DNA of 64,000 nucleotides from a virus (IMGVR_UViG_3300034257_000053:5486-69485), one strand, 5' to 3'; positions 10,319 to 31,534 are shown, counted from the first letter of the stretch. Numbers and translations are program-made. Notes: generated from the sequence alone by a model not told the origin.

Positions 10319-10593
10319 CGCGCCAGGCCGCAGCTTTTCGAAATCCGTGGGGCGATCTGCCGATGCCGCCGACGCCGGACGGTTTCAAGACGATCGACTG
10401 TGCGCCGCGCGACGGCACGTTCGTGCGGCTGCGCTTTCGTCCCGGGATTCTCATGATGGGCGACCACGAGGAGCTCGGTGCGTGGCGTCCCGACGCGAGC
10501 ATGATCGCGGGCGGTTGGTGGTTCAACCGCGGCGGCTTCTACGTCACGCCCGGCCCGCTGTTCTGGGCGCCGGAGGAAGGGGGTTTTCAATGA
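10315..10593 (+). CDS. DUF551-like small phage protein
   Basis: FKTIDCAPRDGTFV resembles the W.PIETAPKDGT motif. Confidence 0.55.
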   Translation: MTRQAAAFRNPWGDLPMPPTPDGFKTIDCAPRDGTFVRLRFRPGILMMGDHEELGAWRPDASMIAGGWWFNRGGFYVTPGPLFWAPEEGGFQ

Positions 10594-10847
10594 GCCAGGA
10601 ACTTTATCGCGATCAGGACAGCCCGGTGCCGATGGTTGATGCGCGCAACACCGTCACGGTGGCTGATCTCGCGAAACTGTTGGCGTTCACGCTCGGCGCC
10701 GAGGTTCTGATCGGACTCGCCACCGAGATCGAGTGGGCGACGATCCTGTATGGGGTGGGGACCACGCTTTCGTTCGGCGTCGGCACGATCGTGTTCGTCG
10801 CGATCAAGACCAAGCGCCGAATCCAATGGCCGGCGAGGCGCGCATGA
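10590..10847 (+). CDS. Small membrane protein
   Basis: Two hydrophobic segments; ATGA overlaps. Confidence 0.6.
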   Translation: MSQELYRDQDSPVPMVDARNTVTVADLAKLLAFTLGAEVLIGLATEIEWATILYGVGTTLSFGVGTIVFVAIKTKRRIQWPARRA

Positions 10848-11566
10848 CGCTCGGCTCGCACCAGCAGTCGATCGGCCGGAGCCAGGTGGCGATCACGCCG
10901 CGCATCATCATCGCGCGGACCGGGCCATACGATCTCGACCCCTGCGCCAGCGACCCGCAGCCGTGGCCGTGTGCGGCGGTGAGCTACACCGAGGCCGACG
11001 ACGGGTTGTCGCTGCCGTGGTTCGGCCGCGTCTTTCTCAACCCGCCGTTCGATCGCCGCGTCGTCGGCGCCTGGATCATGCGCATGATCGCGCACGGGCA
11101 CGGCACGCTGCTGGTGCACGCGCGCACCGAGACCAACTGGTTCTGGCCGATCTGGGATACGGCCGCGGCGCTCCTGTTCCTGCGCCGGCGGCAGCGCTTT
11201 CACCAGCCCGACGGCTCGCTGTTTCTCAACCGGCAGGGTCAGCCGAAGGACTCCGGCGCGCCAGTGGTCCTCGCCGCGTTCGGCTTCCGCGATGCCGAGA
11301 TTCTCGCCGACTGCGGGCTTGAGGGAAAGCTCGTGCCGCTGCTGCTGCCGCGCGGCGTGCTGATCACGGCGCTCGCCGAGCCGACTTGGGTAGGCCTCGT
11401 CTCCGCGTTCGTGCACGAGCGCGGCCGCGCCTCGATCGACGAGATCCTTCGCTTCGTCTCCGCGCATCGCAAGGCGCGCGGCAACAACCACGTGCGCGCG
11501 AAGCTGCGCCAGATCCTCAACAGCGACGGCTTCCGGCGCGACGGCAGCGAATGGGTGACGGCATGA
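10844..11566 (+). CDS. Phage N6-adenine methyltransferase (NPPF type), paralogue 1
   Basis: DLDPCA, DDGLSLPWFGRVFLNPPF, ARTET.WF. Confidence 0.88.
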   Translation: MTLGSHQQSIGRSQVAITPRIIIARTGPYDLDPCASDPQPWPCAAVSYTEADDGLSLPWFGRVFLNPPFDRRVVGAWIMRMIAHGHGTLLVHARTETNWFWPIWDTAAALLFLRRRQRFHQPDGSLFLNRQGQPKDSGAPVVLAAFGFRDAEILADCGLEGKLVPLLLPRGVLITALAEPTWVGLVSAFVHERGRASIDEILRFVSAHRKARGNNHVRAKLRQILNSDGFRRDGSEWVTA

Positions 11567-11928
11567 CCGAAGCGCTGCTGCGCAGAGTGGTCGATCTCAC
11601 ATGGGCCCATGCCTTTGAGAACGAGAGCGTGCAGTCAAGCGAGGTGGCGACCAGGATCATCGACGCCGCACGCGCAAGCTTCGTTGCGGATGCAAAGTTC
11701 GCGTTCGTGGAAGCGGGTCATCCGCTTCCCGACTATATCATCGAGCGCATACGCCCCGGTGACCGGGTGCTGGTCGAGGCCATCGTCCGGACCGGCTTTA
11801 ACGGTGCCGTGTGCACGAATTGGCCGATCAGGATTGAACTCGACACTGGCGAGTCCGACACCGTCGATATCAAGGGCAACGTGCATCGCTCCGCGCTCCG
11901 CGCCGTGGTGGAGCGCGCGAAGCCATGA
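11563..11928 (+). CDS. Hypothetical protein
   Basis: ATGA overlaps on both sides. Confidence 0.6.
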   Translation: MTEALLRRVVDLTWAHAFENESVQSSEVATRIIDAARASFVADAKFAFVEAGHPLPDYIIERIRPGDRVLVEAIVRTGFNGAVCTNWPIRIELDTGESDTVDIKGNVHRSALRAVVERAKP

Positions 11929-12710
11929 CGATGGGCTCGCACCAAACGTCCGTCGGCAAGAACGACAGCCGCTTCACGCCGCAGTGGCTTTGGCGGCCGC
12001 TCAATCCTTTCGCTACCGACGCGGCGACCGGCGCCGTGCGGCCATGGGACATCGGGACCGAGCGCAACATCACGATCGCCGACAACTGCCTTGCGATGGA
12101 CTGGCAGCCGTTCGGGCGGACCTGGCTCAATCCCCCGTTCAACCGCTTCGGCGTCGGCGCGTTCGTCAGGAAGATGTGCGAGCACAACCACGGCATCATG
12201 CTGTTGCACAATCGTCCCGAGACGAAGTGGTTTCGGCCGATCTTCGGTGCGGCGACGGCAAGGCTCTATCTCGATCGCCGCGTCATTTTCTGCAACGCCG
12301 ACGGCTCGCCATGCACGATCGAGAATCCGGAGGCGAAGCACTACGGCAAACAGGCCAATTCCGGCGCGCCGGTAGTGCTGATCGCCTTCGGTTTCCCGGA
12401 TGCCGACGTGCTCTACGGTTTCGATATCGCCAACAACCCGCCCGGTGAACTGCACGGCAATTTCGAAGCGATGATGCTGCCGGTGTCGGTGCTGGTGCGC
12501 ATGATCGAGGCGCCGCCGTCCTGGCGCGCGCTGGTCGCCTCATTCCTGCGCTCGGTGAACCGGCCGGTGTCGGTCGCCGAGGTCTACGAGTTCGTGCGCG
12601 GCCACGACAAGACGCGCGATCGCGCGCACTGGCGCGAGAAGGTGCGCCAGACACTCGTCCGCGGCGCGGGCCTGCGCATCGCCCCGAACCAATGGGTGGC
12701 GGCCGCATGA
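11925..12710 (+). CDS. Phage N6-adenine methyltransferase (NPPF type), paralogue 2
   Basis: FTPQWL, DNCLAMDW, WLNPPF, RPETKWF. Confidence 0.85.
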   Translation: MTMGSHQTSVGKNDSRFTPQWLWRPLNPFATDAATGAVRPWDIGTERNITIADNCLAMDWQPFGRTWLNPPFNRFGVGAFVRKMCEHNHGIMLLHNRPETKWFRPIFGAATARLYLDRRVIFCNADGSPCTIENPEAKHYGKQANSGAPVVLIAFGFPDADVLYGFDIANNPPGELHGNFEAMMLPVSVLVRMIEAPPSWRALVASFLRSVNRPVSVAEVYEFVRGHDKTRDRAHWREKVRQTLVRGAGLRIAPNQWVAAA

Positions 12711-20605: not shown

Positions 20606-20809
20606 TCAGGTCTGCTTGTTGCAGGTGTGAACGATGCCGGTGCAGCCGCACGATGGCGGTGCGGGCTCGATCCCCGGGCCGACAATCATCTTGGTGAGGG
20701 TCTGCTCGGCCAGCTTGTCGAGCTTTCGCGCGATGTGCCGCCGGGTCGTCGCCCGAAGGCGGCCCGGCAGGTCGAGATCGGCGACGATGTGGCGTCGGGT
20801 GATCTGCAT
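20606..20809 (-). CDS. Hypothetical protein
   Basis: TGATG overlap; AAGGAG RBS. Confidence 0.5.
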   Translation of the reverse strand: MQITRRHIVADLDLPGRLRATTRRHIARKLDKLAEQTLTKMIVGPGIEPAPPSCGCTGIVHTCNKQT

Positions 20810-21141
20810 CAGGAGCGCTCCTTGCCGCGTGCTTTCAGGCACCGACTCACGTCCTCGCCGGCAAGGCGTAGCATCGTGCGGGCGCGTTCGTCGAGCCGCG
20901 CAGTCAGGTCCGCGGTGAACGGTGGTAGCCCGGCGAGCGCGGCGGTGAGGCCGAGCAGCTCCAGATGCGACAGCTTGCGGGAGCCGCGGTTCATCGCGCC
21001 GGCCACCTGGTTGCCGAGCCCGACCGACGCACCCGCCTCGGCGACCTGCTTGCCGTTGAAGCCCATGGCGTCGCGCCACGCCGCGAACGGTGTCGCCGGA
21101 ATATTTTCGGGAATTTTTGTCGCGCGTTTCGGCTTAGCCAT
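20809..21141 (-). CDS. HTH-like regulator
   Basis: FAAWRDAMGF.GKQV.EAG..VGL resembles XRE-type HTH proteins. Confidence 0.55.
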   Translation of the reverse strand: MAKPKRATKIPENIPATPFAAWRDAMGFNGKQVAEAGASVGLGNQVAGAMNRGSRKLSHLELLGLTAALAGLPPFTADLTARLDERARTMLRLAGEDVSRCLKARGKERS

Positions 21142-21487
21142 CGTTGCACCTGCAATAGTACGGGCTGCGCTGGCAGTTCGGGCAGACCTTGAAGAACGGC
21201 CGGTTGATAGGTCGTGAATAGCCCACGCAGTGCGCCGACTCGGTGAACTCTTGCTGGGGCACGCCGTCGGTGAAGCCGACAACACCCCATTTGGTCGTTA
21301 CGAGATACGTGTCCTGCCAGTCAACGCGTTCGCCGTGTCGATGGAATTTGAGGTCGGCGAGTTCGATGCCTGGCCCCACGCCCGGCAGTCCTCGCACGTG
21401 CGTGAGCAGATCGGGCCAACTCGCGAACTCCTGCATGGTGGTTAGCGCTTCGGCAAGGCTGCCGCGTTGCTCGCGAAACTTGATCAT
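21134..21487 (-). CDS. Hypothetical protein
   Basis: KFREQRGSLAEAL..M, W.DTYLVT..VVGFTDG; GGAGG RBS. Confidence 0.6.
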   Translation of the reverse strand: MIKFREQRGSLAEALTTMQEFASWPDLLTHVRGLPGVGPGIELADLKFHRHGERVDWQDTYLVTTKWGVVGFTDGVPQQEFTESAHCVGYSRPINRPFFKVCPNCQRSPYYCRCNDG

Positions 21488-21909
21488 GCCGCTGCCCTCC
21501 CTGCACAGTCGGCGCGGTGGCCCGTGGCGGGGTCGATGCCGCGCTCGCGCTGGCTTTCCCACCATTCGGGAGCGAAGGCGCCGAACATCGGTTTCCAGCC
21601 CGCTACTCTTGCACCACACGATGGGCATTCGCCACGGGTCGCCGCCTCCAACCGACGCACCGGCTCGGCCATCTCTCGCCCCTGCGGCGAAGGCTCGGCA
21701 TCGTAGCGCCGCCAGTGAACGCGCACGCCTTTGTGGCCGGAGCGGGTGACCTCCTCGAACCAATCGACGACCACCGGGAAATTCAGCGTGCGCCCGACAT
21801 GTTCGCGCGAATTCTCGACTGACATTGAGAACGCGCCCCGCGACTGTTCGCAGTCGATCTCGAAGATCTCGGTCATGATGTCGGTGGCGGGATCAGGTAG
21901 GGCGCTCAT
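21484..21909 (-). CDS. Hypothetical protein with CxxC
   Basis: GGAGG RBS; ATGA overlaps; CPSC. Confidence 0.6.
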   Translation of the reverse strand: MSALPDPATDIMTEIFEIDCEQSRGAFSMSVENSREHVGRTLNFPVVVDWFEEVTRSGHKGVRVHWRRYDAEPSPQGREMAEPVRRLEAATRGECPSCGARVAGWKPMFGAFAPEWWESQRERGIDPATGHRADCAGRAAA

Positions 21910-23300
21910 GCTGCCCTCCCGATCAGCGACCACAGCCACGCGATCGGCTTCGGCCTGGCCGGTGGCGTGCCTGGCGTTGGGGGCTTCGGCGCTGCCGGCG
22001 GCCGCGGCAGGTCGCCCCGCTCGGTGAGCCGCTCGACGAACGCGTCGAACTGCGCCTCGCGGCTCGTCTCGCGCCCGTAGCGCGTGCGCAGCGGGCAGGC
22101 CCGCATCAGCGCGTCACGTTCGAAATCCGAGACCGGACCGATCTGCGCGGCGGGCGGTGCCACCATCACGCGCTCGACCGGTGTCGGCGTGCCGTCGAGG
22201 GCGAGGAACGAGACCAGCGCCTCGCCGGTGCCGAGCGCGGTGACGGCCTCGGTGACCTTGAACGCCGGGTTGGGGCGGAAGCCGTCCTCGATCGCCTTCA
22301 AGGTGCGGCGGTCCTTCGGGGTGAACACGCGCAGCGCATGCTGCACGCGATTGCCGAGCTGGGCGGCGACGTTGTCCGGCACGTCGCGCGGCGACTGCGT
22401 CACGAAATAGACCCCGACGCCCTTCGAGCGGATCAGGCGCACGACTCGCTCGATGGTTTCCAGAAGGCGCGGTGAGGCCTCGGCGAACAACAGGTGCGCC
22501 TCGTCGAAGAAGAACACGAGCTTGGGCTTGTCGAGATCGCCCGCCTCGGGTAGCACATTGAACAGCGAGGAGAGCAGCCACAGCAGGAAGGTGCCGTAGA
22601 GCCGCGGCGTATCCATCAGCCGATCGGCGTGCAGCAAGTTGATGATGCCGCGGCCGTCCTCGTCGGTGCGCAGGAAATCATTGATGTCGAGCGCGGGCTC
22701 GCCGAACAGGTTGTGCCCGCCCTGCGCCTCCAGCACCAGGATGGCGCGCTGGATCGTGCCGATCGACGTGCTGGAGATGTTGCCGTAGGACGCGCGGATA
22801 TCGTCGGCGAAGTCCGGCATCAGCGAGAGCCTGGCGCGCAGGTCGTGCAGGTCGCACATCGGCACGTTCTCGCCCCACGGCGACCATCTAAACGCGATGT
22901 TGAGCACGCCTTCCTGCGTTTCGTTGAGCTTGAGCATGCGCGCGAGCAGCAGCGGCCCCATTTCGTGCACGCTGGTGCGGATCGGCAGGCCCGCATCGCC
23001 CCACAGGTCCCAGAACACGACGGGGAATTTCTCTGGCGTGCGTGCGAGCCCGAGCGCGGCCGCACGGTCAGCGGCTTTGCCATCGAATGCGCCGGCGGCG
23101 GCAAGGCCGGAGAGGTCGCCCTTGATGTCGGAGGCGAACACCGGCACGCCGGCGCGGGAGAACTCCTCGGCCAGGCGCTGCAAGGTGACGGTCTTGCCGG
23201 TGCCGGTCGCGCCGGTGACGAGACCGTGGCGGTTGGCGAGCCGCAAGGGCAGCGCGATCGCGGTGCCGGCGGCGGTGAGCCCGAGGGTGATGGCGGTCAT
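21906..23300 (-). CDS. DUF853/YjgR-family HerA-like ATPase
   Basis: ANRHGLVTGATGTGKTVTLQ, DIKGDLSG, FFFDEAHLLF, RLIRSKGVGVYFVTQ.P.D.P, QLGNRVQHALR. Confidence 0.93.
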   Translation of the reverse strand: MTAITLGLTAAGTAIALPLRLANRHGLVTGATGTGKTVTLQRLAEEFSRAGVPVFASDIKGDLSGLAAAGAFDGKAADRAAALGLARTPEKFPVVFWDLWGDAGLPIRTSVHEMGPLLLARMLKLNETQEGVLNIAFRWSPWGENVPMCDLHDLRARLSLMPDFADDIRASYGNISSTSIGTIQRAILVLEAQGGHNLFGEPALDINDFLRTDEDGRGIINLLHADRLMDTPRLYGTFLLWLLSSLFNVLPEAGDLDKPKLVFFFDEAHLLFAEASPRLLETIERVVRLIRSKGVGVYFVTQSPRDVPDNVAAQLGNRVQHALRVFTPKDRRTLKAIEDGFRPNPAFKVTEAVTALGTGEALVSFLALDGTPTPVERVMVAPPAAQIGPVSDFERDALMRACPLRTRYGRETSREAQFDAFVERLTERGDLPRPPAAPKPPTPGTPPARPKPIAWLWSLIGRAA

Positions 23301-23497
23301 GATCCGCTCCGTTTCTGTGCCGAGCTGGGAACGGCATCATGAATGCGAGAGATCGTGCCATCGAGCGAGGATAAAGCCTCATTCGCCGACGCAAGTTCGC
23401 TGTCCATGTCCGCTGTGATGGTCACGCCAGCCGACGTGAGTGCCAGTCGGATGTAGTGATCGTAGATGCTCGCCGCTTTTGTGAAGTTGATCGCCAT
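23297..23497 (-). CDS. Small hypothetical protein
   Basis: AGGAGG RBS plus leader hairpin; ATGA overlap with the ATPase gene. Confidence 0.7.
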   Translation of the reverse strand: MAINFTKAASIYDHYIRLALTSAGVTITADMDSELASANEALSSLDGTISRIHDAVPSSAQKRSGS

Positions 23498-23514
23498 GGT
23501 CGTCCTCCTGTTCT

Positions 23515-23532
23515 GCCCGCAGGATCGCGGGC
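23515..23532 (-). repeat. Leader hairpin A copy (GCCCGC-GATCCT-GCGGGC)
   Basis: Identical to the copies at 26261, 26918 and 27259; just 5' of the RBS. Confidence 0.9.
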
Positions 23533-23544
23533 GGCGGTGAAATC

Positions 23545-24138
23545 TCAGTTCTCGTCCCTGCGGCCCGGCATCGGCATGCCGGGGCGCGACTTGATGATCG
23601 GGCGGTAGTCGGCGGCCCAGGCGAGGCGGGTCGCATCGTCGTCGGGCAGGTTCTTGCCGGCGCGAAACTCCTCGTAGGGCGTCGGCACCAGCTCCATCAC
23701 CTCCGGGCGGTGGCCCGAGGCCATCCACGCATCGAGCAGCCGCGCGGTGAACAGCAGGTGCGCGGAATTGAACTGCATCCACGCGTGCCAGTCCGGCGCA
23801 TAGTCGCGGAACGCGCCGTCGTTCGGGAACGTGATCAGGAATGCGGGCGGCGCGCCCTGCAAAGAGGCGTCGATCTCCCGGTTGACGCGCACGAGCAGGC
23901 CTTCCAGCAGGTCGACGTGCCCCTGGAAGGTGAACCACGTGCGGCTGCGCTCGATCTTGCGCACGTCGTCGGCCGAGAGGCCGCCGAGCAGCCCGCCCAA
24001 CTCCTCGCGCGTGTAGCCGAGCAGGTTGCGCATCGCGCGCAGGTCGGCAGGCGTCGGCATCGGTCGGGCTCCGGTGGCGGCCGGACTATCGACGAGGCGG
24101 CGCGCGGCGGCAAGGCTGGTTGCGAGGGCCCGGGTCAT
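23545..24138 (-). CDS. XRE-HTH protein, Aca2/YdiL (DUF1870)-like; alternative start at 24060
   Basis: DLRAMRNLLGYTREELG...DVRKIE HTH followed by LITFPNDGAFRDYAPD, resembling the recalled YdiL C-terminal part. Confidence 0.6.
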   Translation of the reverse strand: MTRALATSLAAARRLVDSPAATGARPMPTPADLRAMRNLLGYTREELGGLLGGLSADDVRKIERSRTWFTFQGHVDLLEGLLVRVNREIDASLQGAPPAFLITFPNDGAFRDYAPDWHAWMQFNSAHLLFTARLLDAWMASGHRPEVMELVPTPYEEFRAGKNLPDDDATRLAWAADYRPIIKSRPGMPMPGRRDEN

Positions 24139-24323
24139 GACGCTGCGTCCCGCAAGCATTGCCGCTCGAACCGCAGTTCGGCGTCGCAGTCGCGCCAGCC
24201 TTGGCGCTCCTGCGGCGACCGGCAGGACTTCCTCGCGCCGCCGTCATAGCGCCGCCAGTAGCCACGATCGTAGGGGTGACGCTCGATCACGATGCCTCGG
24301 CGGGCGGTGCGGGTGCGGGTCAT
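24135..24323 (-). CDS. Small Rmf-like protein
   Basis: YDRGY...G..KSC....RQGW. Confidence 0.4.
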   Translation of the reverse strand: MTRTRTARRGIVIERHPYDRGYWRRYDGGARKSCRSPQERQGWRDCDAELRFERQCLRDAAS

Positions 24324-24613
24324 GACTCGGGCTCCGCTTTCTTGCGCGAGGCCGATGCGCTCGCCTTCTCGATGGCGATCTGCGCCTGGCAGTGCGCGAT
24401 GTTGAACTCCAGCAGCGCGATCATGATGGGCACGTTGATCGTCTGGCCCTGCGCCAGGCCGAACTCGGCCATCGCTGCGGCGGTGACGGAAACGCGCTGA
24501 CCATCGAGCATGACGAAGGCAATGCGCCCCTCGTCCATGCCGCGCTCGCACTCGATAAGCGCGCGGATTTCGTCCTCGGTGAATCGTCGAGGGGGGGGGG
24601 CGTCGGTTGTCAT
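24320..24613 (-). CDS. Hypothetical protein
   Basis: GGAG RBS; ATGA overlaps. Confidence 0.6.
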   Translation of the reverse strand: MTTDAPPPRRFTEDEIRALIECERGMDEGRIAFVMLDGQRVSVTAAAMAEFGLAQGQTINVPIMIALLEFNIAHCQAQIAIEKASASASRKKAEPES

Positions 24614-24909
24614 CGCTTTGCTCCCCGGTAGTAATCCTCGGGGACCGCGCGCTGTACCAGCAACGCCGCGCGGAACCATTCGGTGCCGAGCCGCTCGACC
24701 GCTTCGAGCATGGTGTAGCCGTTGCCCTGCTGGAACAGGTCAGGACGGTCGAGCACGAGCGCGACGGCAAGGCTTTCGCCGGTGGAGAACACACCGATGC
24801 GCCTTTCGTCGGCACGTACAGCATCGACCAGTTTGAGGATGCGCTCGGCGGCGTCGGTGACCGGATCGACGGGGTTGGCTGGCGGTTGTTTTGGCTGGCG
24901 GATCGTCAT
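24610..24909 (-). CDS. Hypothetical protein
   Basis: STGE.LAVALVLDR.D......YTM.EA..RLG..W; AGGAGG RBS. Confidence 0.7.
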   Translation of the reverse strand: MTIRQPKQPPANPVDPVTDAAERILKLVDAVRADERRIGVFSTGESLAVALVLDRPDLFQQGNGYTMLEAVERLGTEWFRAALLVQRAVPEDYYRGAKR

Positions 24910-25160
24910 GGCCTAACCTCCTGCGCGCGCGTTGTGCCAGCGGTGGTGAGCCGATAGGCGGGATCGCCAAGGCGCGTCGTGCCCCATGGCTCGATCAATC
25001 CGAGACCGAGAAACTTGTCGGCGATGAGATCGCCGAACAGCGTGCGGTGCACGCGGTCGCCGAACGCTTCCTTGCCGCCGTGCGTGTTGATCGACCATCT
25101 CGTGTAGCGCAGCAGGTAGAGCTCGTAGTCGGTGAGGGGGGGGGTGCCGATTTCAGTCAT
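24906..25160 (-). CDS. Hypothetical wHTH-like protein
   Basis: LGLIE...YRLTTAG; ATGA overlaps. Confidence 0.6.
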   Translation of the reverse strand: MTEIGTPPLTDYELYLLRYTRWSINTHGGKEAFGDRVHRTLFGDLIADKFLGLGLIEPWGTTRLGDPAYRLTTAGTTRAQEVRP

Positions 25161-25735
25161 GATGCCACCACCGGCTTCACCGCGTTCATGATGATCTTGG
25201 TGCGGTCCTCAATAAGCACCCCGGGCAAGGTTGGGCCGAGCGCGCGAGCGGCCTTGAAGGCGTCGGCCTTGCGGGTGAACTTGCGCCATCCGCCTTTTTG
25301 CCCATTCGGTGCGACGCAGTTTGGGTCATAGCCGACCATCAGGGCGTAACGCTCACCGGCCACGTCGACGAGGCGGGCGACATAGTAGTCGTGACCGCTG
25401 ACATAGGTTGCGAGCACGACCGCGTAGAGCGGTTCGGCCTCGACGCGCGCCATCAGCTCGCGCGCGGCGCGGATCATGCACCAGAGGGCGGTGGCCTCGC
25501 CGTTGAGGTAGTCGTCGCTGAGATCGGCCAGCACGTCATCCTCGGTGACCGTCGAGAGGGGCCGCCGGTAATCCTTGGCGTATTCGCGCCGCCGCTCCAG
25601 CAGTTCCGCAGCGTCGGTCGGTGTGGTGCAGCGCGCCATGCCACTCACAAATTTCTGGAGCTCGGTCACGAGATCGGTGGCCGATGCGATTGCCGGCAAC
25701 GGCGGTGCGGCGGGCTTTGCGGTGATGTCGTTCAT
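25157..25735 (-). CDS. Hypothetical protein, C-terminal domain paralogous to 28771-29136
   Basis: GGAG RBS; shared F..K.DAF..AR.LGP.LP motif. Confidence 0.7.
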   Translation of the reverse strand: MNDITAKPAAPPLPAIASATDLVTELQKFVSGMARCTTPTDAAELLERRREYAKDYRRPLSTVTEDDVLADLSDDYLNGEATALWCMIRAARELMARVEAEPLYAVVLATYVSGHDYYVARLVDVAGERYALMVGYDPNCVAPNGQKGGWRKFTRKADAFKAARALGPTLPGVLIEDRTKIIMNAVKPVVAS

Positions 25736-26238
25736 CGTGCCGCTCCCTTCGCGATGATGTCACCGCGCGAGGCGTGGCGGTGCGCGCCTTCGGCCGACTT
25801 GATCGCACGGGCGACGTAGTCGGCAGCGCGCTGGCTGCCGCAGGTGCGCAGCATGTCGCGTGCGCTGCGCAGGTGACCGATGGCTTTGGTGATGATGCCC
25901 GGTCGCGTCGGCGCGCTGGCCGCTACGGTGATGTTGAGGCGCTCGCACAGCGCATCAATGTCCTCGACGGTCAGCTCGGTGATGGTGTTGCTAATGGTCG
26001 CGATGTCGGCAAGGTCCGCGTCCCACGGTGCCCGCTGGTAACAGCGCAGCCCCGCCAGCACGGTGGCAAGCTCGCGATCATCGAGCGCATGCGGCCGGGC
26101 CGCGAGCGCGCTGCACGCGGCTTCGATGGCGATGTCCCATTCGGCGGGGTCGAGCGCGGAGCCTTCGGCTGCGCACGACTCGGCGGCTTGGAGCCGCAGG
26201 TCGCGCAGGGCGGCGGTGAAACGTTCGGTGTCGTTCAT
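25732..26238 (-). CDS. Hypothetical protein
   Basis: AAGGAGG RBS plus leader hairpin; RELATVLAGLR.YQ...IDALCERLN. Confidence 0.75.
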   Translation of the reverse strand: MNDTERFTAALRDLRLQAAESCAAEGSALDPAEWDIAIEAACSALAARPHALDDRELATVLAGLRCYQRAPWDADLADIATISNTITELTVEDIDALCERLNITVAASAPTRPGIITKAIGHLRSARDMLRTCGSQRAADYVARAIKSAEGAHRHASRGDIIAKGAAR

Positions 26239-26260
26239 TGGAAGTTCCTCCTTGTGGGCT

Positions 26261-26278
26261 GCCCGCAGGATCGCGGGC
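26261..26278 (-). repeat. Leader hairpin A copy
   Basis: GCCCGC-GATCCT-GCGGGC upstream of the RBS. Confidence 0.9.
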
Positions 26279-26285
26279 GGTCGGG

Positions 26286-26900
26286 TTAAGCTTTGCCAGC
26301 GGCGCGCGCGTGTTTCTGTGATGGCGCGCCCGCCAGCTTGCGGCGGATCACCTCGGCGAGGTTGATGCCAGGCGCATCGGGCGCGCCGTGGTTGGCTACC
26401 GCAGCGGCTTCCTCGCGGCCGTCACCCTGCGTCACGTCGGTGAGATCGGCCGCGTCCGCACCGTCGGTGTCGTAGTCGATCACCCATGCGTCACCGACCG
26501 CACCGGGGCGGTCGGTCACGATGTCCTGCACCATGCCGCCTTCGAGCACGATGGCGATTGTCGGTGGCGTTGCGCCAGAGACTGCCAATTCGTTGACCCA
26601 TACGTCGGCATCATCGTCGTCGAGGTCGAACGATGCGCCCGCCTTAACGGCGATGCCCAAGTCGCGCGCGCGTTTGCGGCGCGCCTGTAGCAGCGAGGCT
26701 TCCCAATTGGCGGTGGTCGCGGTCGGCTTCAAGTCGACATCCGTCCGGAGAAGATTGACGTAGGCGGCGGCGGCGGTGTTGGCATCGGCGCGCGTCGCGT
26801 ACGCCATCATCGGCTGGCCAGGCGTAAACCAATGTGTGGCCTGCAGGATGAAAACGGCGGGTGGCGGCGCGGTGACCGGCTTGGCCTTTGATTTTGTCAT
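26286..26900 (-). CDS. Hypothetical protein
   Basis: GGAGG RBS plus leader hairpin; IAIVLEGGMVQDI...VIDYDTDG. Confidence 0.75.
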   Translation of the reverse strand: MTKSKAKPVTAPPPAVFILQATHWFTPGQPMMAYATRADANTAAAAYVNLLRTDVDLKPTATTANWEASLLQARRKRARDLGIAVKAGASFDLDDDDADVWVNELAVSGATPPTIAIVLEGGMVQDIVTDRPGAVGDAWVIDYDTDGADAADLTDVTQGDGREEAAAVANHGAPDAPGINLAEVIRRKLAGAPSQKHARAAGKA

Positions 26901-26917
26901 GATGGTCCTCCAGTTCT

Positions 26918-26935
26918 GCCCGCAGGATCGCGGGC
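26918..26935 (-). repeat. Leader hairpin A copy
   Basis: GCCCGC-GATCCT-GCGGGC-AGAAC-RBS. Confidence 0.9.
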
Positions 26936-26946
26936 GACGGTGTGTT

Positions 26947-27243
26947 TCAGCCTTTCGACATCGGGAGGCCGGAGATCCGGCACAGTTCGGCGGCTACCTG
27001 TTCCGCGCGGGAACGGGTAGGGCAATCGGTGATCGCTTCGGCCTCGCCGCTATGGTGGCGGCCGTAGACGGTGAAAAACTCCGCCTCCGCGTCATCGGTG
27101 AGCAATCCGATGGTATGGCCCGGATCGGCGGGGTCATCCTTGCAGGCACCGATTTCCAGCGTGGCGAACTGCGACCATTCCGGCGCGCGGTGGTCCGTGC
27201 AGTTGTTGAATAGATCGGAGGCGGTGAAGGTCTCGGTGGTCAT
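26947..27243 (-). CDS. Small acidic hypothetical protein
   Basis: AGGAG RBS plus leader hairpin; EAEFFTVYG. Confidence 0.75.
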   Translation of the reverse strand: MTTETFTASDLFNNCTDHRAPEWSQFATLEIGACKDDPADPGHTIGLLTDDAEAEFFTVYGRHHSGEAEAITDCPTRSRAEQVAAELCRISGLPMSKG

Positions 27244-27258
27244 TCGTGCTCCTGTTCT

Positions 27259-27342
27259 GCCCGCAGGATCGCGGGCCGGTGGCGGTGGCGTTCCGGGGTG
27301 CACCGGGCGGGCATTGTTGCCCGGTGCACGGCCGCAACGTCG
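27259..27342 (-). repeat. Element B (variant inner stem, 27285-27342) plus hairpin A (27259-27276)
   Basis: Same flanks as the 28719 and 29589 copies; inner stem GTGCACCGGGC/GCCCGGTGCAC. Confidence 0.85.
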
Positions 27343-27345
27343 CCG

Positions 27346-28677
27346 CTAGACGCGCATCGGCATGAGAACGAACAGCGGGCCGCTATTGTCCGCCGCGCGC
27401 ACCAGCGTCGGCGAACCGGGATCAGCGAGCATGAGGGTCACACGCTCGCCGCCGACCTGTTCCAGAATGTCGGCGAAGTAGCGGCCATTGAATCCGATGT
27501 CCATCGGATCGCCGGACCAGTCGCATTCGATCTGCTCGCGCGTGTCGCCCGCGTCGGGGTTTTGCACGGTGAGGGTGAGGCGGTTGCCCTCAATCGAGAA
27601 CTTCACCGCGCGACCGCGCTCGCTCGATACGGTGCTCACGCGGTCGACGGCCGCCGCCAGCTCACCAAGGTCGACGGTGAGGCGGTGCGGGTTGCCGAGC
27701 GGGATCACGCGCCCATAGTCGGGGAACGTGCCGTCGATCAGCTTTGAAATCAGCGTGACGTTGCCGCTGCTAAAGATGATGCCAGCCGGACCGACCGACA
27801 CGGTCAACATGACCGACGGCGCGGCAGTCTCGCCCTTTTTCGCCTTGCGCGGCTTGGTGCCGAACATCGCGATCACGCAATCGACCGCCTTGCTGGGCAC
27901 GATCACGCCCGGCATGTCGGCCGCGCCCTCGGGCATCGCCATATCGACCTGGGCCAGGCGGTGGCCATCGGTCGCGACCATGCGCAACGCGCCGGGGTTG
28001 CCGTTGTAGCGCTGCACGCCATTCGACTTGATCGCGTGCAGGTAAATGCCGTTCAAATAATAGCGGGTTTCCTCTGTCGAGATCGCGAAGCGCGCGCGTC
28101 GCAGCGCATTGCAGAATGTCAGCGCGTCGACCGTGAAGGTCGCGGGCGCGGCAAACTCGCGATCCTTCGGCCAATCGGCGGGCAGCGCGGTGGAAAGCGC
28201 GCCGTTTGATGCGCCAAGGCGCACCGCCACCCGGCCGGGGTTGACGGTGTACCATGGCGCGGCGTTCGCGGGCTTGTGCTCGATCTTCTCCGGCTGTTTC
28301 GTGATGTCGAGTGCGACGGTATCGGCTCCGGACTTGCGCAGCATGTCGCGGAACATGTGAGCCGGGACCGCAAGCGCGAAGCCCGCGCCGACGGTGGCCG
28401 GGATCGTGACGCGCGCGGTCAGGTCGAGATCGGTGGTTTCGATCATGAGGCCGCCGCCATGCTCGCGCAGCAGCACATTCGACAGGATTGGAATCGTGTT
28501 GCGCTTTTCGGTGACGATGGTGGCGAGCTGCATCGCGCTTGCGAGCGCGGTACGGTCGACGCGCGCGGATGGTAGCGGCGCGGGGTTTTCATTCGCGGCC
28601 AACACCGCCGCGATGTCCGCCACGATGGCGGGCGGCGCGACGGTGGCGGTGGCAAGGTTTACGCGGTCCTGTTGCAT
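27346..28677 (-). CDS. dnaN: DNA polymerase III beta sliding clamp
   Basis: EKRNTIPILSNVLL, TDLD, FAISTEETRYYLNG, VATDGHRLA, SKLIDGTFPDY.RVIP, IGFN..Y, terminal VLMPMRV. Confidence 0.95.
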   Translation of the reverse strand: MQQDRVNLATATVAPPAIVADIAAVLAANENPAPLPSARVDRTALASAMQLATIVTEKRNTIPILSNVLLREHGGGLMIETTDLDLTARVTIPATVGAGFALAVPAHMFRDMLRKSGADTVALDITKQPEKIEHKPANAAPWYTVNPGRVAVRLGASNGALSTALPADWPKDREFAAPATFTVDALTFCNALRRARFAISTEETRYYLNGIYLHAIKSNGVQRYNGNPGALRMVATDGHRLAQVDMAMPEGAADMPGVIVPSKAVDCVIAMFGTKPRKAKKGETAAPSVMLTVSVGPAGIIFSSGNVTLISKLIDGTFPDYGRVIPLGNPHRLTVDLGELAAAVDRVSTVSSERGRAVKFSIEGNRLTLTVQNPDAGDTREQIECDWSGDPMDIGFNGRYFADILEQVGGERVTLMLADPGSPTLVRAADNSGPLFVLMPMRV

Positions 28678-28697
28678 GTCGACTCCTTTCAGTAAGC

Positions 28698-28773
28698 CCC
28701 GCACGATCGCGGGCGCTTGGAACACTGGCGTTCCGGAGTGCAGCGCGCGAAGCGCTGCACGGTCGCAACGTCA
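28698..28773 (-). repeat. Element B (28719-28773) plus hairpin A (28698-28713)
   Basis: 55 bp with one mismatch to 29589-29643; hairpin loop GATCGT. Confidence 0.9.
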
Positions 28774-29136
28774 GTTCTGCGGGACGGGCGGCACCTTGAA
28801 GGCGAAGCCTTCGGGGCGCGTGTAGTCTTTCACGTGAACGTCAGGCAGCACCGGCCCGAGCGAGCGGGCATAGGTGAAGGCATCGCGCTTGTTGCCGAAC
28901 TGCACATGCCAAGACTTCCCGTCAGAGATCGGGAACACGTAGTCGGTGAGATCGAGCGTGACCACGCGGCCGACGGTGTACGCAGGGCGCCGCGTGTGCG
29001 TTTGAATGACCGCATAGCGGCGCGGCTCGGTCGCATCGCACGGGTGCGGCGCGTCGGCGGCCAGGCGGTCGAATAGCGCCGCCACGGCTTCATTGCTTTG
29101 GCGCGCGCGGGCGATCTTGTTGGGGTCAAGGTTCAT
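28771..29136 (-). CDS. Hypothetical protein
   Basis: ATGA overlap; paralogous to the C-terminus of 25157-25735. Confidence 0.7.
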   Translation of the reverse strand: MNLDPNKIARARQSNEAVAALFDRLAADAPHPCDATEPRRYAVIQTHTRRPAYTVGRVVTLDLTDYVFPISDGKSWHVQFGNKRDAFTYARSLGPVLPDVHVKDYTRPEGFAFKVPPVPQN

Positions 29137-29549
29137 GCCACGCCCCAGCCGGATTCGCGGCCGCCCATGCTGTTGCTGGTGCCGGATTTCAGATGCAGGT
29201 GCAGCACGTAGCCGCGCGGGTCTCCGCCGACGCTGGCGGTTGCGCTGTATTGCGCGGCGATCAAGTCGGCCGCGGCCTTGATGCGCTTTTCCGCCTGTTC
29301 CGCGCGGGCTTCATCTTCATCGGTCCAATCGGGGAAGCGCCCGCCGCGCGTGGCGTCGTAACGCTCGACACCATTGCACCGCTGCACGGCCAGGCGCGAC
29401 GCGCGCAAGCCGAGTCGGCGGAGTGTGATGGCATCGTCGGCGATCATGAACGGAGCCGGGTTCGTGCGATCCGGTACGCCATGGCCTAACGCGATTTCGC
29501 GGGCGAGAAGCGCAGCCAGCTCGGCGGTCGCCCTAGTTTTTGCGTTCAT
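29133..29549 (-). CDS. Conserved phage hypothetical protein (CNG...GDPRG motif)
   Basis: GGAGGA RBS plus leader hairpin. Confidence 0.75.
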   Translation of the reverse strand: MNAKTRATAELAALLAREIALGHGVPDRTNPAPFMIADDAITLRRLGLRASRLAVQRCNGVERYDATRGGRFPDWTDEDEARAEQAEKRIKAAADLIAAQYSATASVGGDPRGYVLHLHLKSGTSNSMGGRESGWGVA

Positions 29550-29566
29550 CGTCATTCCTCCAGTCG

Positions 29567-29643
29567 GCCCCAGCACAATCGCGGGGCGGGAACAGTGGCG
29601 TTCCGGAGTGCAGCGCGCGAAGCGCTGCACGGTCGCAACGTCA
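29567..29643 (-). repeat. Element B (29589-29643) plus hairpin A (29567-29587)
   Basis: Repeat of 28719-28773; hairpin loop GATTGT. Confidence 0.9.
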
Positions 29644-29946
29644 CGTTCCTGCGAAACAATCGACCATGAACGTCGGCCGACGATTCTTATCGGGCGCGGG
29701 CACGAAGCCGGGAGGAGCTGCGGCCTTGGCCGCCTTCTGCTGATCCTTGTATTTCCGCTCGCATGCGCGGCACTTGTCCATCTCCACATCGGTCGCGGCG
29801 TACGACGGCGCGGCGGATGCGAGCGTGCCAAGGGTGAGCATGACGGCAAGCGCACCGTTGAGCCAGGCGCGCTTTCCGGTGAGCACGAAGCGCCGCACGC
29901 GGCGACGGTCGTTGTGGCTTTGGCTACTGCGGCGAGTGTGAGACAT
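29641..29946 (-). CDS. First gene of leftward operon; exported/membrane protein with CxxC
   Basis: GGAGG RBS; hydrophobic segment ending ASAAPSYA; CRAC. Confidence 0.65.
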   Translation of the reverse strand: MSHTRRSSQSHNDRRRVRRFVLTGKRAWLNGALAVMLTLGTLASAAPSYAATDVEMDKCRACERKYKDQQKAAKAAAPPGFVPAPDKNRRPTFMVDCFAGT

Positions 29947-29964
29947 CGTGTTTCCTCCAGTGAC

Positions 29965-30013
29965 GCCCCAGCACAATCGCGGGGCAGGTCCATGCCGACA
30001 TGATCGCGGCATG
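29965..30013 (-). repeat. Tandem leader hairpins A (29991-30013 and 29965-29985)
   Basis: CATGCCGC-GATCAT-G(T)CGGCATG and GCCCCGC-GATTGT-GC(T)GGGGC. Confidence 0.8.
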
Positions 30014-30017
30014 AACG

Positions 30018-30046
30018 TATAATATGTATTCTCATATTATAGTCAA
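30018..30046 (-). promoter_or_regulatory. Leftward sigma70 promoter with overlapping palindromic operator
   Basis: -35 TTGACT (30046-30041), 16 bp spacer, -10 TATTAT (30024-30019); TATAATATG-N6-CATATTATA at 30018-30041. Confidence 0.75.
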
Positions 30047-30399
30047 GCCTTCAGGGTGAGAATAGTGGGAAAGATTATTGCTTTTTGATTCGTCAAATGC
30101 CTGTTGTCCGGACAAGGTGGGTTTGACGGGCGAGCGCTTTCCCCCCTCTATGGCCACTATCACCTCTAGAGTCGGACAGTCGCGCGGGCCGGTGCAGTGC
30201 ACCGAGCTCGAGATGGCCAGGCGCGACCGTCGCCCAACTCCTCAACCTGACAAGTGCCGAGCAGCTCCGCCCGAAGGTAGGGCGGGCGATCTGCTGGCGT
30301 GTGTGCCATGGCGTGCCCGCCTCGTCCTTCGCTGCAGGCACAGCCCACGTGCGCCGCTGCGCAACTGTGCCGGCATCTAGCGCCAATCACTCGCCGCGC

Positions 30400-30809: not shown

Positions 30810-30886
30810 CGCGGGATAGCGCAGCCCGGTAGCGTGCTTGGCTCATAACCAGGAGGTCGCGAGTTCAAATCTCGCTCCCGCAACCA
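30810..30886 (+). tRNA. tRNA-Met(CAT), initiator-like, phage-encoded
   Basis: Cloverleaf, CTCATAA anticodon loop, TTCAAAT T-loop, encoded CCA, C1xA72 mismatch. Confidence 0.93.
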
Positions 30887-30985: not shown

Positions 30986-31534
30986 ATGCTCAAGATTCAG
31001 GTCCGCGCCGAACGTATGGGCGATCTCGGCACGTTCGTGCGCCGGCTCGACTCTCCGGAGATGCGCATCGCCGGTGCGCGCGGCTTGAACGAGCACATCC
31101 GGCAGCAAGAAAAAGATTCGATCGCGACGGTGTCGGGGCAAACGCGCGTTCCGGCATCGCGGGTCAAGTCGATCTCGCGTGTGAGACTTACATCGCCGTC
31201 GGCGTTCATGAGCGCGGCGGTCGAGTTTCGCGACAAGGCGATCCCGCTAGGCGAATACACCTATCGCGCCTGGTCGCGTTCGATGCCTGGCGCGCGCGCC
31301 GGCGATTGGGGTGGCAAGACGCACAAGGGTGCGTTCACCGTCTCGCGCTACGGCGGCCGCATCTTCAGGCGTACCGGCAAGTCGCGATTTCCGATTCAGC
31401 AGTTGTGGGGGCCGGTGCTGCCGAACGAATTGTTGCGGCGGGACATGCCTAACCTACGACAGCGCGAGGCGTTCGCGGCGCGCGATCTCGAGCAACGCGT
31501 GTTGCGCAACATGCTTCACGTTTTTGGTTTTTGA
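30986..31534 (+). CDS. Lambda gpZ-like minor tail/completion protein
   Basis: ARGLN, IPL..Y, KGAF, IF.R.GKSRFPI.QL.GP. Confidence 0.65.
   Translation: MLKIQVRAERMGDLGTFVRRLDSPEMRIAGARGLNEHIRQQEKDSIATVSGQTRVPASRVKSISRVRLTSPSAFMSAAVEFRDKAIPLGEYTYRAWSRSMPGARAGDWGGKTHKGAFTVSRYGGRIFRRTGKSRFPIQQLWGPVLPNELLRRDMPNLRQREAFAARDLEQRVLRNMLHVFGF

What the first reader, a model, noticed from the sequence alone, without database searches (positions are those of the whole stretch)
20606..30046. Candidate new system: cos-adjacent early operon under dual DNA-operator and RNA-hairpin control
Seen: about 18 co-oriented, mostly small unknown genes run from a near-consensus promoter overlapped by a palindrome. Eight conserved leader hairpins and three larger structured elements punctuate the operon, two HTH genes lie distally, and the promoter is about 400 bp from a cos candidate. 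Established: acr-aca operons pair strong promoters with Aca repressors, Aca2 binds both DNA inverted repeats and leader RNA stem-loops, and lambda ejects its right end first. Inference: this is a first-injected 9.5 kb anti-defence or host-takeover operon with gene-by-gene translational shut-off. Its unknown genes are candidates for new anti-defence proteins.
Basis: partly seen in the sequence, partly recalled or inferred. Interest (0 to 1): 0.85.

Follow-up and report, generated by a model that had tools for sequence, protein, structure and literature searches.

The report
Phage operon punctuated by regulator-linked hairpins
A 9.4 kb phage operon places the same small hairpin before every independently translated gene group and encodes a regulator with the fold of Aca2, a protein known to bind both promoter DNA and leader RNA, so the whole operon may be switched off together, though what its genes do is still unknown.

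Summary
A minus-strand operon of 19 genes (30046 to 20606) starts at TTGACT-16-TATTAT, overlapped by a perfect 9+9 palindrome. Eight copies of one hairpin (CCCGCG-AUNN-UGCGGG) lie in its leaders. All 7 uncoupled starts carry one 16-23 nt upstream, and the other 12 genes overlap their upstream gene. Three larger B elements also exist. Two syntenic relatives (L082, L203) have the same system, with phage-specific loop bases and covarying B stems.

g13 has the Aca2/YdiL/SO3848 two-domain fold: the profile hits SO3848 at E 7e-21 and Aca2 at 3e-8, the ten best fold-search hits are only these proteins, and a homodimer is predicted. Published acr-aca2 operons share this layout.

Not supported:
- The cos position and "first-injected" could not be tested.
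- No known anti-defence gene was found.
- The recognisable cargo is DNA metabolism: a DnaN clamp, a HerA-like ATPase, and a ligase OB domain in L082.
- Binding of g13 to the hairpins is inferred, not shown.

Verdict: a new variant of a known kind, namely operon-wide, multi-site Aca2-type control. The scan's earlier notes all concern this same window, not other DNA.

The parts
30074..30097 (-). 24-nt upstream block TTTGACGAATCAAAAAGCAATAAT (contains the inverted repeat TTTGA-N4-TCAAA); candidate second DNA site
   Evidence: 24/24 identical in L082, at the same 27-nt distance from the -35. Unique in the window. Partly kept in L203.
30019..30046 (-). Sigma-70-type promoter TTGACT-16-TATTAT
   Evidence: The -10 is identical in L082 and the -35 there is TTGCAA.
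30018..30041 (.). Perfect 9+9 inverted repeat over the spacer and -10; candidate operator
   Evidence: Only 6 of 9 pairs are kept in L082 (read by eye).
29994..30010 (-). Hairpin A0 (GCCGCGAUCAUGUCGGC), starting about 2-3 nt after the predicted TSS
   Evidence: 17/17 identical in L082. Folds at -4.8 kcal/mol.
29966..29984 (-). Hairpin A1 (variant with a bulged U), 19 nt before the g1 start
29641..29946 (-). g1, 101 aa, N-terminus looks signal-like by eye; function unknown
   Evidence: The first 31 aa are 65% identical in L082.
29589..29643 (-). B element 1
29568..29586 (-). Hairpin A2 (variant), 18 nt before the g2 start
29133..29549 (-). g2, 138 aa, unknown
28771..29136 (-). g3, 121 aa, unknown; start overlaps the g2 stop (ATGA); paralogous to the g8 C-terminus
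   Evidence: 65% identical in L082.
28719..28773 (-). B element 2
28698..28713 (-). Hairpin A3 (variable loop bases CG), 20 nt before the g4 start
27346..28677 (-). g4, DnaN sliding clamp, 443 aa
   Evidence: Three Pfam clamp domains; phrog_947.
27288..27341 (-). B element 3 (longer inner stem with compensatory changes)
27260..27275 (-). Hairpin A4, 16 nt before the g5 start
26947..27243 (-). g5, 98 aa, unknown
26919..26934 (-). Hairpin A5, 18 nt before the g6 start
26286..26900 (-). g6, 204 aa, unknown
26262..26277 (-). Hairpin A6, 23 nt before the g7 start
24135..26238 (-). g7 to g12, six coupled genes of unknown function (26238-25732, 25735-25157, 25160-24906, 24909-24610, 24613-24320, 24323-24135)
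   Evidence: ATGA overlaps. No family match except weak phrog_22116 for g10.
23545..24138 (-). g13, 197 aa, Aca2/YdiL/SO3848-fold HTH regulator; candidate reader of the hairpins
23516..23531 (-). Hairpin A7, 18 nt before the g14 start
23297..23497 (-). g14, 66 aa, unknown
21906..23300 (-). g15, HerA-like (YjgR/DUF853) ATPase, 464 aa
   Evidence: PF05872 at E 1e-183. 79% identical in L082 and 61% in L203.
21134..21909 (-). g16 (141 aa) and g17 (117 aa), coupled, Cys-rich, unknown
20809..21141 (-). g18a, 110 aa, probable XRE-type HTH (lead only)
   Evidence: No Pfam hit. 75% nt identity in L082.
20606..20809 (-). g18b, 67 aa, unknown; last gene, converging on the plus-strand gene that ends at 20604

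Best explanation
This is a single-promoter operon of a siphovirus-like phage of an alphaproteobacterial host. It is probably expressed early. Its output is limited by negative feedback at two levels.

Proposed mechanism:
1. Transcription starts at the strong sigma-70 promoter at 30046-30019.
2. One polycistronic mRNA is made, divided into 7 translational units.
3. Each unit that needs de novo ribosome loading carries the same hairpin (stem CCCGCG/UGCGGG, loop AUNN), ending 16-23 nt before its start codon and 6-10 nt before its SD.
4. The distal gene g13 encodes an Aca2-fold HTH dimer. Once made, it binds these hairpins and blocks 30S access to every unit at once.
5. g13 or the second HTH protein g18a binds the palindrome over the promoter, or the conserved 24-nt block, and shuts off transcription.
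6. The three B elements are structured RNA at the ends of g1, g3 and g4. They most likely act as 3' stabilisers or processing sites.

Shown here: the anatomy, its conservation in three phages, the fold of g13, and covariation in B.

Inferred: RNA binding by g13, the repressive sign of the control, early timing, and any anti-defence role.
For: Position rule.
- In the window, 7 of 7 uncoupled starts carry the hairpin. Its 3' end lies 16-23 nt from the start codon and the SD begins 6-10 nt after it. The other 12 genes overlap the upstream gene.
- In L203, 4 of 4 uncoupled starts have it.
- L082 has 7 copies, all followed by an SD and a start codon.

Specificity.
- No hairpin-context copy occurs elsewhere in the 69.5 kb genome.
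- The 6.3 Mb genome holding L082 has exactly 6 matches, all in the operon and all on one strand; the control pattern gave 0.
- All 19 copies in the three phages lie in the sense orientation.

Sequence-level constraint.
- Stem and loop bases CCGCGAU are invariant in 19 of 19 copies.
- The two variable loop bases track the phage: CC in 4 of the window's 8 copies, CA in all 7 L082 copies, and CG in 3 of L203's 4.
- This is what a trans-acting reader would produce.
- Single-base bulges are tolerated in 4 copies. That suits an RNA hairpin better than a fixed-spacing DNA operator.

Regulator (g13).
- The narrow family profile hits SO3848 (2OX6) at E 0.004.
- The 60-member profile hits 2OX6 at E 6.9e-21 and four distinct Aca2 chain sequences (7EZY, 7VJO, 8W35, 7B5J) at 2.8e-8 to 4e-7.
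- 12 of the 60 members match Pfam Aca2_YdiL and 21 of 60 match DUF4447.
- The AF2 model has pLDDT 92.7.
- Its ten best PDB hits are only SO3848, Aca2 and YdiL, with target TM 0.64-0.75; the next hit is at E 0.15.
- The homodimer score is 0.86 against a best control of 0.00. That mark was reached by 20 of 30 proteins solved as pairs and 1 of 23 solved as single chains. The runs agree in at least 66% of contacts and the partner pLDDT is at least 84. Like dimers have been solved, so the pass may come from memory.
- g13 homologues were found in all 3 hairpin-bearing phages.

Precedent. Aca2 binds promoter DNA and 5'UTR hairpins and so blocks the RBS. RNA motifs start right after the TSS and also occur between genes (PMC13551039, passages).

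B elements. 97.2% of cells are paired, 7 of 18 pairs change on both sides, and 0 of 500 shuffles reach this. Slid controls pair 26-54% of cells. L203's B stems differ in sequence but fold alike.
Against: - There are no binding or expression data.
- g13 itself has no PF08965 hit, even at E 10.
- Of 10 strong direct hits of the narrow profile, none matched PF08965 and only one matched DUF4447, at E 8e-4. The clade is therefore a separate branch, nearest to SO3848, whose function is unknown.
- The link to Aca2 passes through a 60-member profile that includes Aca2_YdiL members.
- The promoter palindrome and the hairpin are unrelated in sequence, so nothing ties one protein to both.
- The palindrome keeps only 6 of 9 pairs in L082, and I did not find it in L203.
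- The canonical hairpin stems never vary, so they give no covariation evidence.
- Sense and antisense folds are equally stable (-8.25 against -8.07 kcal/mol; sense more stable in 6 of 19).
- Leader fold z-scores are only -1.2 to -3.0. RNA against DNA is therefore not settled by computation.
- There are only three genomes, and copies within one genome are not independent.
- L082 has short gaps of 10-24 nt without a hairpin.
- No known anti-defence family is present. The cargo includes DnaN and a HerA-like ATPase, and a ligase OB domain in L082.
Confidence: 0.5

Rival explanations
1. The hairpins and B elements are protein-independent mRNA punctuation. Endonuclease cuts between B and A leave B as a 3' protective hairpin for the upstream message and A as a 5'-terminal stabiliser or insulator that keeps the SD accessible. 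The result is fixed, differential expression without feedback.
For: - A0 begins 2-3 nt after the predicted TSS.
- By established knowledge of RNase E, a 5'-terminal stem-loop protects a transcript.
- B sits at the stop codons of g1, g3 and g4 and covaries like a pure structure.
- The SD itself stays unpaired in most predicted folds.
Against: A purely structural role does not explain invariant stem sequence and conserved loop bases in 19 of 19 copies across phages whose proteins are 55-79% identical. It also does not explain phage-specific loop bases, or why the motif is confined to one operon.
Confidence: 0.2
2. The motif acts as double-stranded DNA. CCCGC-N6-GCGGG sites would be operators or 'stoperator'-like roadblocks for g13 or g18a, stopping elongating RNA polymerase at successive points in the operon.
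For: - The motif is dyad-symmetric, with 5-bp half-sites about one helical turn apart.
- Sense and antisense folds are equally stable.
- HTH dimers canonically bind such DNA.
- Cluster A stoperators are a precedent for one-orientation intergenic sites (mentioned in PMC3203893).
Against: - The spacing is tied to the SD and start codon (16-24 nt in 17 of 18 leaders), which points to translation.
- One-base bulges in 4 copies change the half-site spacing.
- The asymmetric loop lies in one orientation in 19 of 19 copies.
- The site occurs only where ribosomes must load anew.
Confidence: 0.12
3. The hairpin+SD cassettes are mainly portable junctions for gene exchange, like the promoter-stem-loop cassettes of T4-type phages (recalled, not read here). 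Regulation would be secondary.
For: - Cargo differs between the three phages while the junctions are kept. Examples are g2 against h2, g14 (66 aa) against h14 (180 aa), and 19 genes here against 7 in L203.
- A 45-nt repeat including the SD is shared by g5, g6 and g14.
Against: Three genomes cannot show recombination at the junctions. This reading is compatible with, and does not replace, a regulatory role. It does not explain the conserved loop.
Confidence: 0.08
4. The hairpins are nut/boxB-like antitermination sites, and B elements are terminators that are read through.
For: The B stems are GC-rich, 9-11 bp long, and sit at gene ends, each followed by an A hairpin.
Against: - No U tract follows B.
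- One nut site per operon suffices in lambda (established knowledge), yet here there are eight.
- A occurs without B at 4 window junctions.
- No N-like protein was recognised.
Confidence: 0.05

Closest known systems
acr-aca2 operons (Aca2 of Pectobacterium phage ZF40): an HTH dimer that represses its promoter on DNA and blocks translation by binding 5'UTR hairpins (PMC13551039 passages; PMC8434428 section 3.3)
   Same: - A two-domain Aca2 fold and a predicted dimer.
- A palindrome over a strong promoter.
- A structured motif that starts right after the predicted TSS, with two tandem hairpins in the first leader of the window.
- Motifs between genes inside the operon.
- An NTPase gene downstream of the regulator.
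   Different: - g13 is 197 aa, has no PF08965 hit, and sits nearest SO3848/DUF4447.
- There are 8 sites along 9.4 kb and 19 genes. The paper's passage speaks of up to three clustered motifs.
- Internal sites are single hairpins.
- No known acr gene is present.
- The cargo includes DnaN and a HerA-like ATPase rather than a DEAD-box helicase.
- I could not see the published Aca2 RNA motif sequence, so motif likeness is untested.
SO3848 (PDB 2OX6) and YdiL (1S4K), structural-genomics proteins of unknown function
   Same: SO3848 is the best sequence and fold match of g13 over both domains (E 6.9e-21; target TM 0.71-0.75).
   Different: No function or binding site is known for them. Identity in the fold alignment is only 14-16%.
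Start-associated sequences and extended SAS of Cluster K mycobacteriophages (PMC3203893, passages of the SAS section)
   Same: - Repeats tied to start codons, nearly all in one orientation.
- An inverted repeat just upstream of the SD-containing repeat.
- A consensus that differs between subclusters.
- Association with genes of different families.
- Absence from the host genome.
   Different: - A different sequence (the SAS is GGGATAGGAGCCC).
- 17-bp imperfect repeats with a variable spacer.
- Copies spread through the whole genome.
- Actinobacterial hosts.
- No regulator has been proposed, and the function is still unknown.
Stoperators of Cluster A mycobacteriophages (mentioned in PMC3203893; details recalled)
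   Same: Many one-orientation intergenic sites for one phage repressor.
   Different: Stoperators are asymmetric 13-bp DNA sites that act on transcription and have no fixed spacing to start codons.

Membership tests
Aca2/YdiL family (Pfam PF08965) and Aca2 fold | N-terminal XRE-type helix-turn-helix | tested here: met
   HTH_31 at E 0.005 in g13, and in 28 of 60 family members. The Aca2 N-terminal ~85 aa align to the family profile at E 2.8e-8 to 4e-7.
Aca2/YdiL family (Pfam PF08965) and Aca2 fold | C-terminal domain of the Aca2 type, so that both domains superpose | tested here: met
   The Foldseek top 10 are only SO3848, Aca2 and YdiL, with target TM 0.64-0.75 over 123-162 alignment columns. 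The next hit is at E 0.15. The model has pLDDT 92.7.
Aca2/YdiL family (Pfam PF08965) and Aca2 fold | The protein itself scores with the Pfam model PF08965 | tested here: not met
   No PF08965 hit for g13 or its 5 close homologues at E up to 10. 12 of 60 wider family members do hit it, but 0 of 10 strong direct hits do.
Aca2/YdiL family (Pfam PF08965) and Aca2 fold | Homodimer | tested here: met
   This is a prediction only. Score 0.86 against best control 0.00; the mark was reached by 20 of 30 solved pairs and 1 of 23 single chains; at least 66% of contacts agree; pLDDT is at least 84. The pass may come from memory of solved dimers.
Aca2/YdiL family (Pfam PF08965) and Aca2 fold | Binds an inverted repeat in its own promoter and hairpins in its own mRNA leader | not testable with these tools
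   Candidate sites exist. No nucleic-acid docking or assay is available.
acr-aca operon | DNA motif over the promoter, with an RNA motif starting directly after the TSS and at a conserved distance to the start codon (PMC13551039) | tested here: met
   The palindrome lies at 30018-30041 over the -10. A0 starts about 2-3 nt after the predicted TSS. The hairpin-to-start distance is 16-24 nt in 17 of 18 leaders. The TSS is predicted, not mapped.
acr-aca operon | At least one known anti-CRISPR or anti-defence gene upstream of the regulator | tested here: not met
   No such family was found in Pfam or PHROGs for any of the 19 window genes or the 10 L082 genes scanned. No dedicated anti-defence library was available, so novel ones are not excluded.
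SAS/ESAS of Cluster K mycobacteriophages | 13-bp SAS consensus GGGATAGGAGCCC 3-8 nt before the start codon | tested here: not met
   The leaders carry ordinary SDs (GGAGG or AGGAG) with different flanks. The likeness is one of design only.
lambda-type cos phage, with the operon at the last-packaged end | GpA-like large terminase, with cos between the operon promoter and the terminase genes | tested here: inconclusive
   TerL matches phrog_15 at E 2.5e-136. The position of cos is unknown. L203 keeps the operon next to the neck gene but has a TerL only 24% identical.

The most novel reading that the evidence does not exclude
A divergent Aca2-superfamily regulator uses one RNA hairpin, repeated before every independently translated unit, as a translational operator code for a whole 9.4 kb, 19-gene operon. 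A single protein would then shut down some 7 ribosome-loading sites at once. The hairpin+SD cassette would double as a plug-in adaptor that places any newly acquired gene under the same control. The B elements would be a new structured RNA class that partitions the transcript.
Probability: 0.35. Interest if true: 0.78.

Novelty: new variant of a known kind. Interest (0 to 1): 0.6.

Why it matters
RNA binding by HTH regulators of the Aca type was only recently described, and so far concerns one to three sites near short anti-CRISPR operons.

If this operon works the same way, three things follow:
- The principle would scale to an operon-wide regulon of eight RNA sites.
- It would extend to a branch of the family (SO3848/DUF4447-like) that has no known function.
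- It would govern genes beyond anti-CRISPRs, including a sliding clamp and a HerA-like ATPase.

The three phages offer natural specificity variants. Their loop bases are mainly CC, CA and CG, and the regulators are 60-64% identical, so swap experiments are possible. The 15 unknown genes and the B elements are concrete candidates for new phage functions and a new RNA motif.

Tried and rejected
Searches for relatives.
- No phage record is near-identical to the operon.
- 80 clamp-anchored IMG/VR loci share none of the other 17 genes tested and have no hairpin motif.
- The 24-nt block was not found in metagenome or viral contigs.
- g13, g8 and P0007 have no relatives in viral contigs.
- The g13 profile found no relative in metagenome contigs.
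- It was not found in the 800 other genomes searched in the class and order of the L082 genome.

Structure and family checks.
- The first g13 model, from 6 sequences, had pLDDT 53.7 and was not used.
- Rfam has no family here other than the tRNA.
- The Atlas search of g3 gave only scores under 0.8.
- g15-type ATPases occur in 31 phage records without an assigned role.
- I thought the G.U closing pair would mark the sense strand, but the energies are equal, so I dropped it as evidence.
- Fold z-scores are weak in this GC-rich DNA.

Lifestyle and cos.
- There is no tyrosine integrase in the genome, nor within about 190 kb of L082, so lifestyle is unresolved.
- cos cannot be located.
- No RNA holder is listed. 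One DNA run of a metagenome, kept as contigs and possibly the source, holds the stretch. I did not lay it, because contigs cannot show ends.

Literature limits.
- The primary Aca2 RNA-binding paper is not held. I know it only through PMC13551039.
- Supplements are closed, so that paper's lists of motif loci could include this family and I could not check.
- A search for 'DUF4447' found 1 paper, which I did not read.

Full report
What the window is. The window is 64 kb of a 69,485-bp virus record. IMG/VR classes the record as linear, and CheckV estimates it 93% complete. GC is 66%. Nearly all genes are on the plus strand. An O-like initiator, DNA methyltransferases, a primase and a DnaB helicase run up to 20604. 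From 30986 come a neck-type gene, TerS, a lambda GpA-like TerL (phrog_15, E 2.5e-136), portal, major head protein and, further on, an endolysin. The flagged region is the only large minus-strand block. It converges on the replication genes and diverges from the packaging genes. tRNA-Met lies at 30810-30886 in between. No phage record is near-identical, and the clamp is at most 40-45% identical to anything held.

Checking the observation. GC3 profiles and an RBS scan give 19 genes from 29946 to 20606. The promoter-like site TTGACT-16-TATTAT lies at 30046->30019. The scan's count (2 found, 1.4 expected) is not significant in itself. The site is, however, an AT-rich island whose -10 is identical in a relative. 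A perfect 9+9 inverted repeat spans 30018-30041. It is unique at up to 3 mismatches, and 0 of 100 shuffles gave a match.

The hairpin motif has 4 exact copies, 1 one-mismatch copy and 2 variant copies. At up to 3 mismatches there are 13 matches against 4.5 expected, and 0 of 100 shuffles reached 13. An eighth, 5'-most variant sits at 29994-30010. Three larger repeats (B) lie at 29589-29643, 28719-28773 and 27288-27341.

The rule behind the hairpins. On the transcribed strand, seven genes (g1, g2, g4, g5, g6, g7, g14) are separated from the upstream gene or the TSS by 46 nt or more. Each of these has the hairpin. The other 12 genes overlap the upstream gene's stop, mostly as ATGA. The hairpin's 3' end lies 16-23 nt from the start codon, and the SD begins 6-10 nt after it. 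By established knowledge of the 30S footprint, that places the hairpin inside the ribosome-loading region without pairing the SD itself. The operon is thus seven translational units, each with the same leader element.

Relatives. None of 80 clamp-anchored viral loci shares the other genes or the motif. The candidate regulator g13 has only five homologues at 54-64% identity among 5.8 billion proteins. Two could be placed on DNA.

L082 lies in an alphaproteobacterial MAG. It is collinear with the window from TerL (76% aa) through neck, tRNA-Met, promoter and operon to DnaB (72%). It shares g1 (N-terminus), g3, g4, part of g7, g13 and g15 at 51-79%. It has six exact CCCGCGATCATGCGGG sites plus the identical 5'-most variant, each before an SD and start codon. 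The whole 6.3 Mb genome has only those six matches, all on one strand, and the control pattern gave none. The motif is therefore phage-specific and not a host repeat.

L203 is a 61.9 kb viral contig. It has g13 (60%), g15 (61%) and the neck gene (69%), but a TerL only 24% identical. Its operon has 7 genes, and all 4 uncoupled starts carry an A-type hairpin.

Across the 19 copies, CCGCGAU and two further G positions are invariant. The two variable loop bases follow the phage: CC in 4 of the window's 8 copies, CA in all 7 of L082's, and CG in 3 of L203's 4. Stem variants keep pairing: GCCGCG/CGCGGC, GCCGCG/CGCGGU, and four copies with a one-base bulge. All 19 fold, at -4.8 to -10.6 kcal/mol.

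The B elements. Six copies from the window and L082 align with conserved flanks and a variable core. For the two-helix structure I derived from the folds, 97.2% of cells pair, 7 of 18 pairs change on both sides, and no shuffle of 500 reaches the observed values. Sliding the partner drops pairing to 26-54%. L203's two B elements keep the flanks and the architecture but have unrelated inner stems. B is therefore a genuine conserved structure. It begins at the stop codon of the upstream gene and has no U tract.

The regulator.

Evidence against direct membership: Pfam gives g13 only a weak HTH_31 hit and no PF08965.

Evidence for the fold:
- The profile of the six close homologues hits SO3848 (PDB 2OX6) at E 0.004.
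- An exhaustive profile search found 97 proteins at E up to 1e-3, most of them 160-190 aa and matched over both domains.
- Of 60 aligned members, 28 carry HTH_31, 21 carry DUF4447 and 12 carry Aca2_YdiL.
- That profile hits 2OX6 at E 6.9e-21 over its full length, four distinct Aca2 chain sequences at 2.8e-8 to 4e-7, and YdiL at 5.4e-5.
- With this alignment the AF2 model reaches pLDDT 92.7.
- Its ten best PDB matches are SO3848, Aca2 and YdiL only, before a gap to E 0.15.

PMC8434428 (section 3.3, read) states that YdiL and SO3848 were the only PDB entries aligning with both domains of Aca2. A homodimer is predicted (0.86 against 0.00, with the caveats given).

Against over-reading this result, none of 10 strong direct hits of the narrow profile carries PF08965. 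The g13 clade is a separate branch of the superfamily, closest to a protein of unknown function.

A second distal gene, g18a, looks like an XRE-type HTH in the Atlas only and has no Pfam or PDB sequence match.

How it most likely works. PMC13551039 (passages read) reports the following:
- Aca2 represses its promoter through an inverted repeat.
- Aca2 also binds two hairpins in the 5'UTR and so blocks the ribosome-binding site.
- In several Aca families the DNA motif overlaps the promoter and the RNA motif starts right after the TSS.
- RNA motifs also occur between genes inside operons.
- Helicase genes often follow aca2.

The present operon has each of these features in expanded form. It has a palindrome over the -10 and two tandem hairpins in the first leader. 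It has six further single hairpins at internal loading sites. It also has an Aca2-fold gene about 6 kb from the promoter, followed by an ATPase.

I therefore favour delayed negative feedback (confidence 0.5). A burst of expression comes from the strong promoter. Translation of all seven units is then shut off once g13 accumulates, and transcription is repressed by g13 or g18a.

The sequence invariance, the phage-specific loops, the confinement to one operon, the single orientation and the tolerated bulges all favour a sequence-specific reader acting on RNA. None of this proves it. The hairpin is equally stable on either strand, its stems do not covary, and the palindrome is degenerate in L082.

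What is not supported. The cos site and the entry order cannot be tested here. The terminase type makes a nearby cos plausible.

No gene matches a known anti-defence family. The recognisable genes are a sliding clamp, a YjgR/DUF853-type ATPase found in 31 other phage records, and, in L082, a ligase OB domain in frame with the ATPase. Association with an Aca2-like regulator is a lead. It is not evidence, because such regulators occur in diverse contexts (Highlights printed with the abstract of PMC8434428, search listing).

Comparison and novelty. The nearest known system is the acr-aca2 operon. Among repeat systems without a known regulator, the closest is SAS/ESAS of Cluster K mycobacteriophages (PMC3203893). 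This operon differs from the former in the regulator branch, the number of sites (8 along 9.4 kb), single internal hairpins, the B elements and the cargo.

I found no paper describing it, but my searches were narrow. The Aca2 term searches returned no paper on this operon. 'DUF4447' returned one paper, which I did not read. The Cluster K search was. The primary Aca2 RNA paper and all supplements were out of reach.

I class it as a new variant of a known kind, with interest 0.6.

Noticed in passing
L082:11169-13322: In the sister phage the HerA-like ORF is 717 aa. An in-frame N-terminal part of about 250 aa carries a DNA ligase OB domain (PF14743, E 4e-7). The window's g15 lacks it.
   Followed up: partly
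window 28771-29136 and 25157-25735: g3 and the C-terminal half of g8 are paralogous (33% identity over 81 aa, E 1e-8). This is an unknown domain present twice in the operon and conserved in L082.
   Followed up: partly
window 30074-30097 (minus): A 24-nt block is 24/24 identical in L082 at the same 27-nt distance from the -35, although the sequence between them has diverged. It is partly kept in L203. What binds it is unknown.
   Followed up: partly
window 30986-31534: A tail-completion/Neck1-type gene (phrog_27, E 8e-13) sits upstream of TerS, next to tRNA-Met, which is an unusual position. It is 80% identical in L082 and 69% in L203, even though L203's TerL is only 24% identical.
   Followed up: no
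window 29589-29643, 28719-28773; L082 6204-6268; L203 7640-7700, 8262-8322: The 5' flank of the B element starts with the stop codon of the upstream gene (TGACGTTGCG). Between B and the A hairpin, a third small hairpin (GGAAC-N6-GUUCC) competes with B's outer helix, so alternative folds are possible.
   Followed up: partly
window 1-12710 and genome 4411-6120: At least four DNA methyltransferase genes lie in the rightward early operon (PHROGs 359, 116 and 111 twice). Most hairpin loops contain GATC. I did not test any link.
   Followed up: no
window 29641-29946: g1, the first gene, has an Arg-rich N-terminus followed by a hydrophobic stretch and an AxA-like site, so it looks secreted (by eye). 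Only its first 31 residues are conserved in L082.
   Followed up: no
G001 contig around L082: L082 lies inside a 3.16 Mb contig, yet no tyrosine integrase is found within about 190 kb, and none is in the window's genome. The mode of residence of this phage family is unclear.
   Followed up: partly
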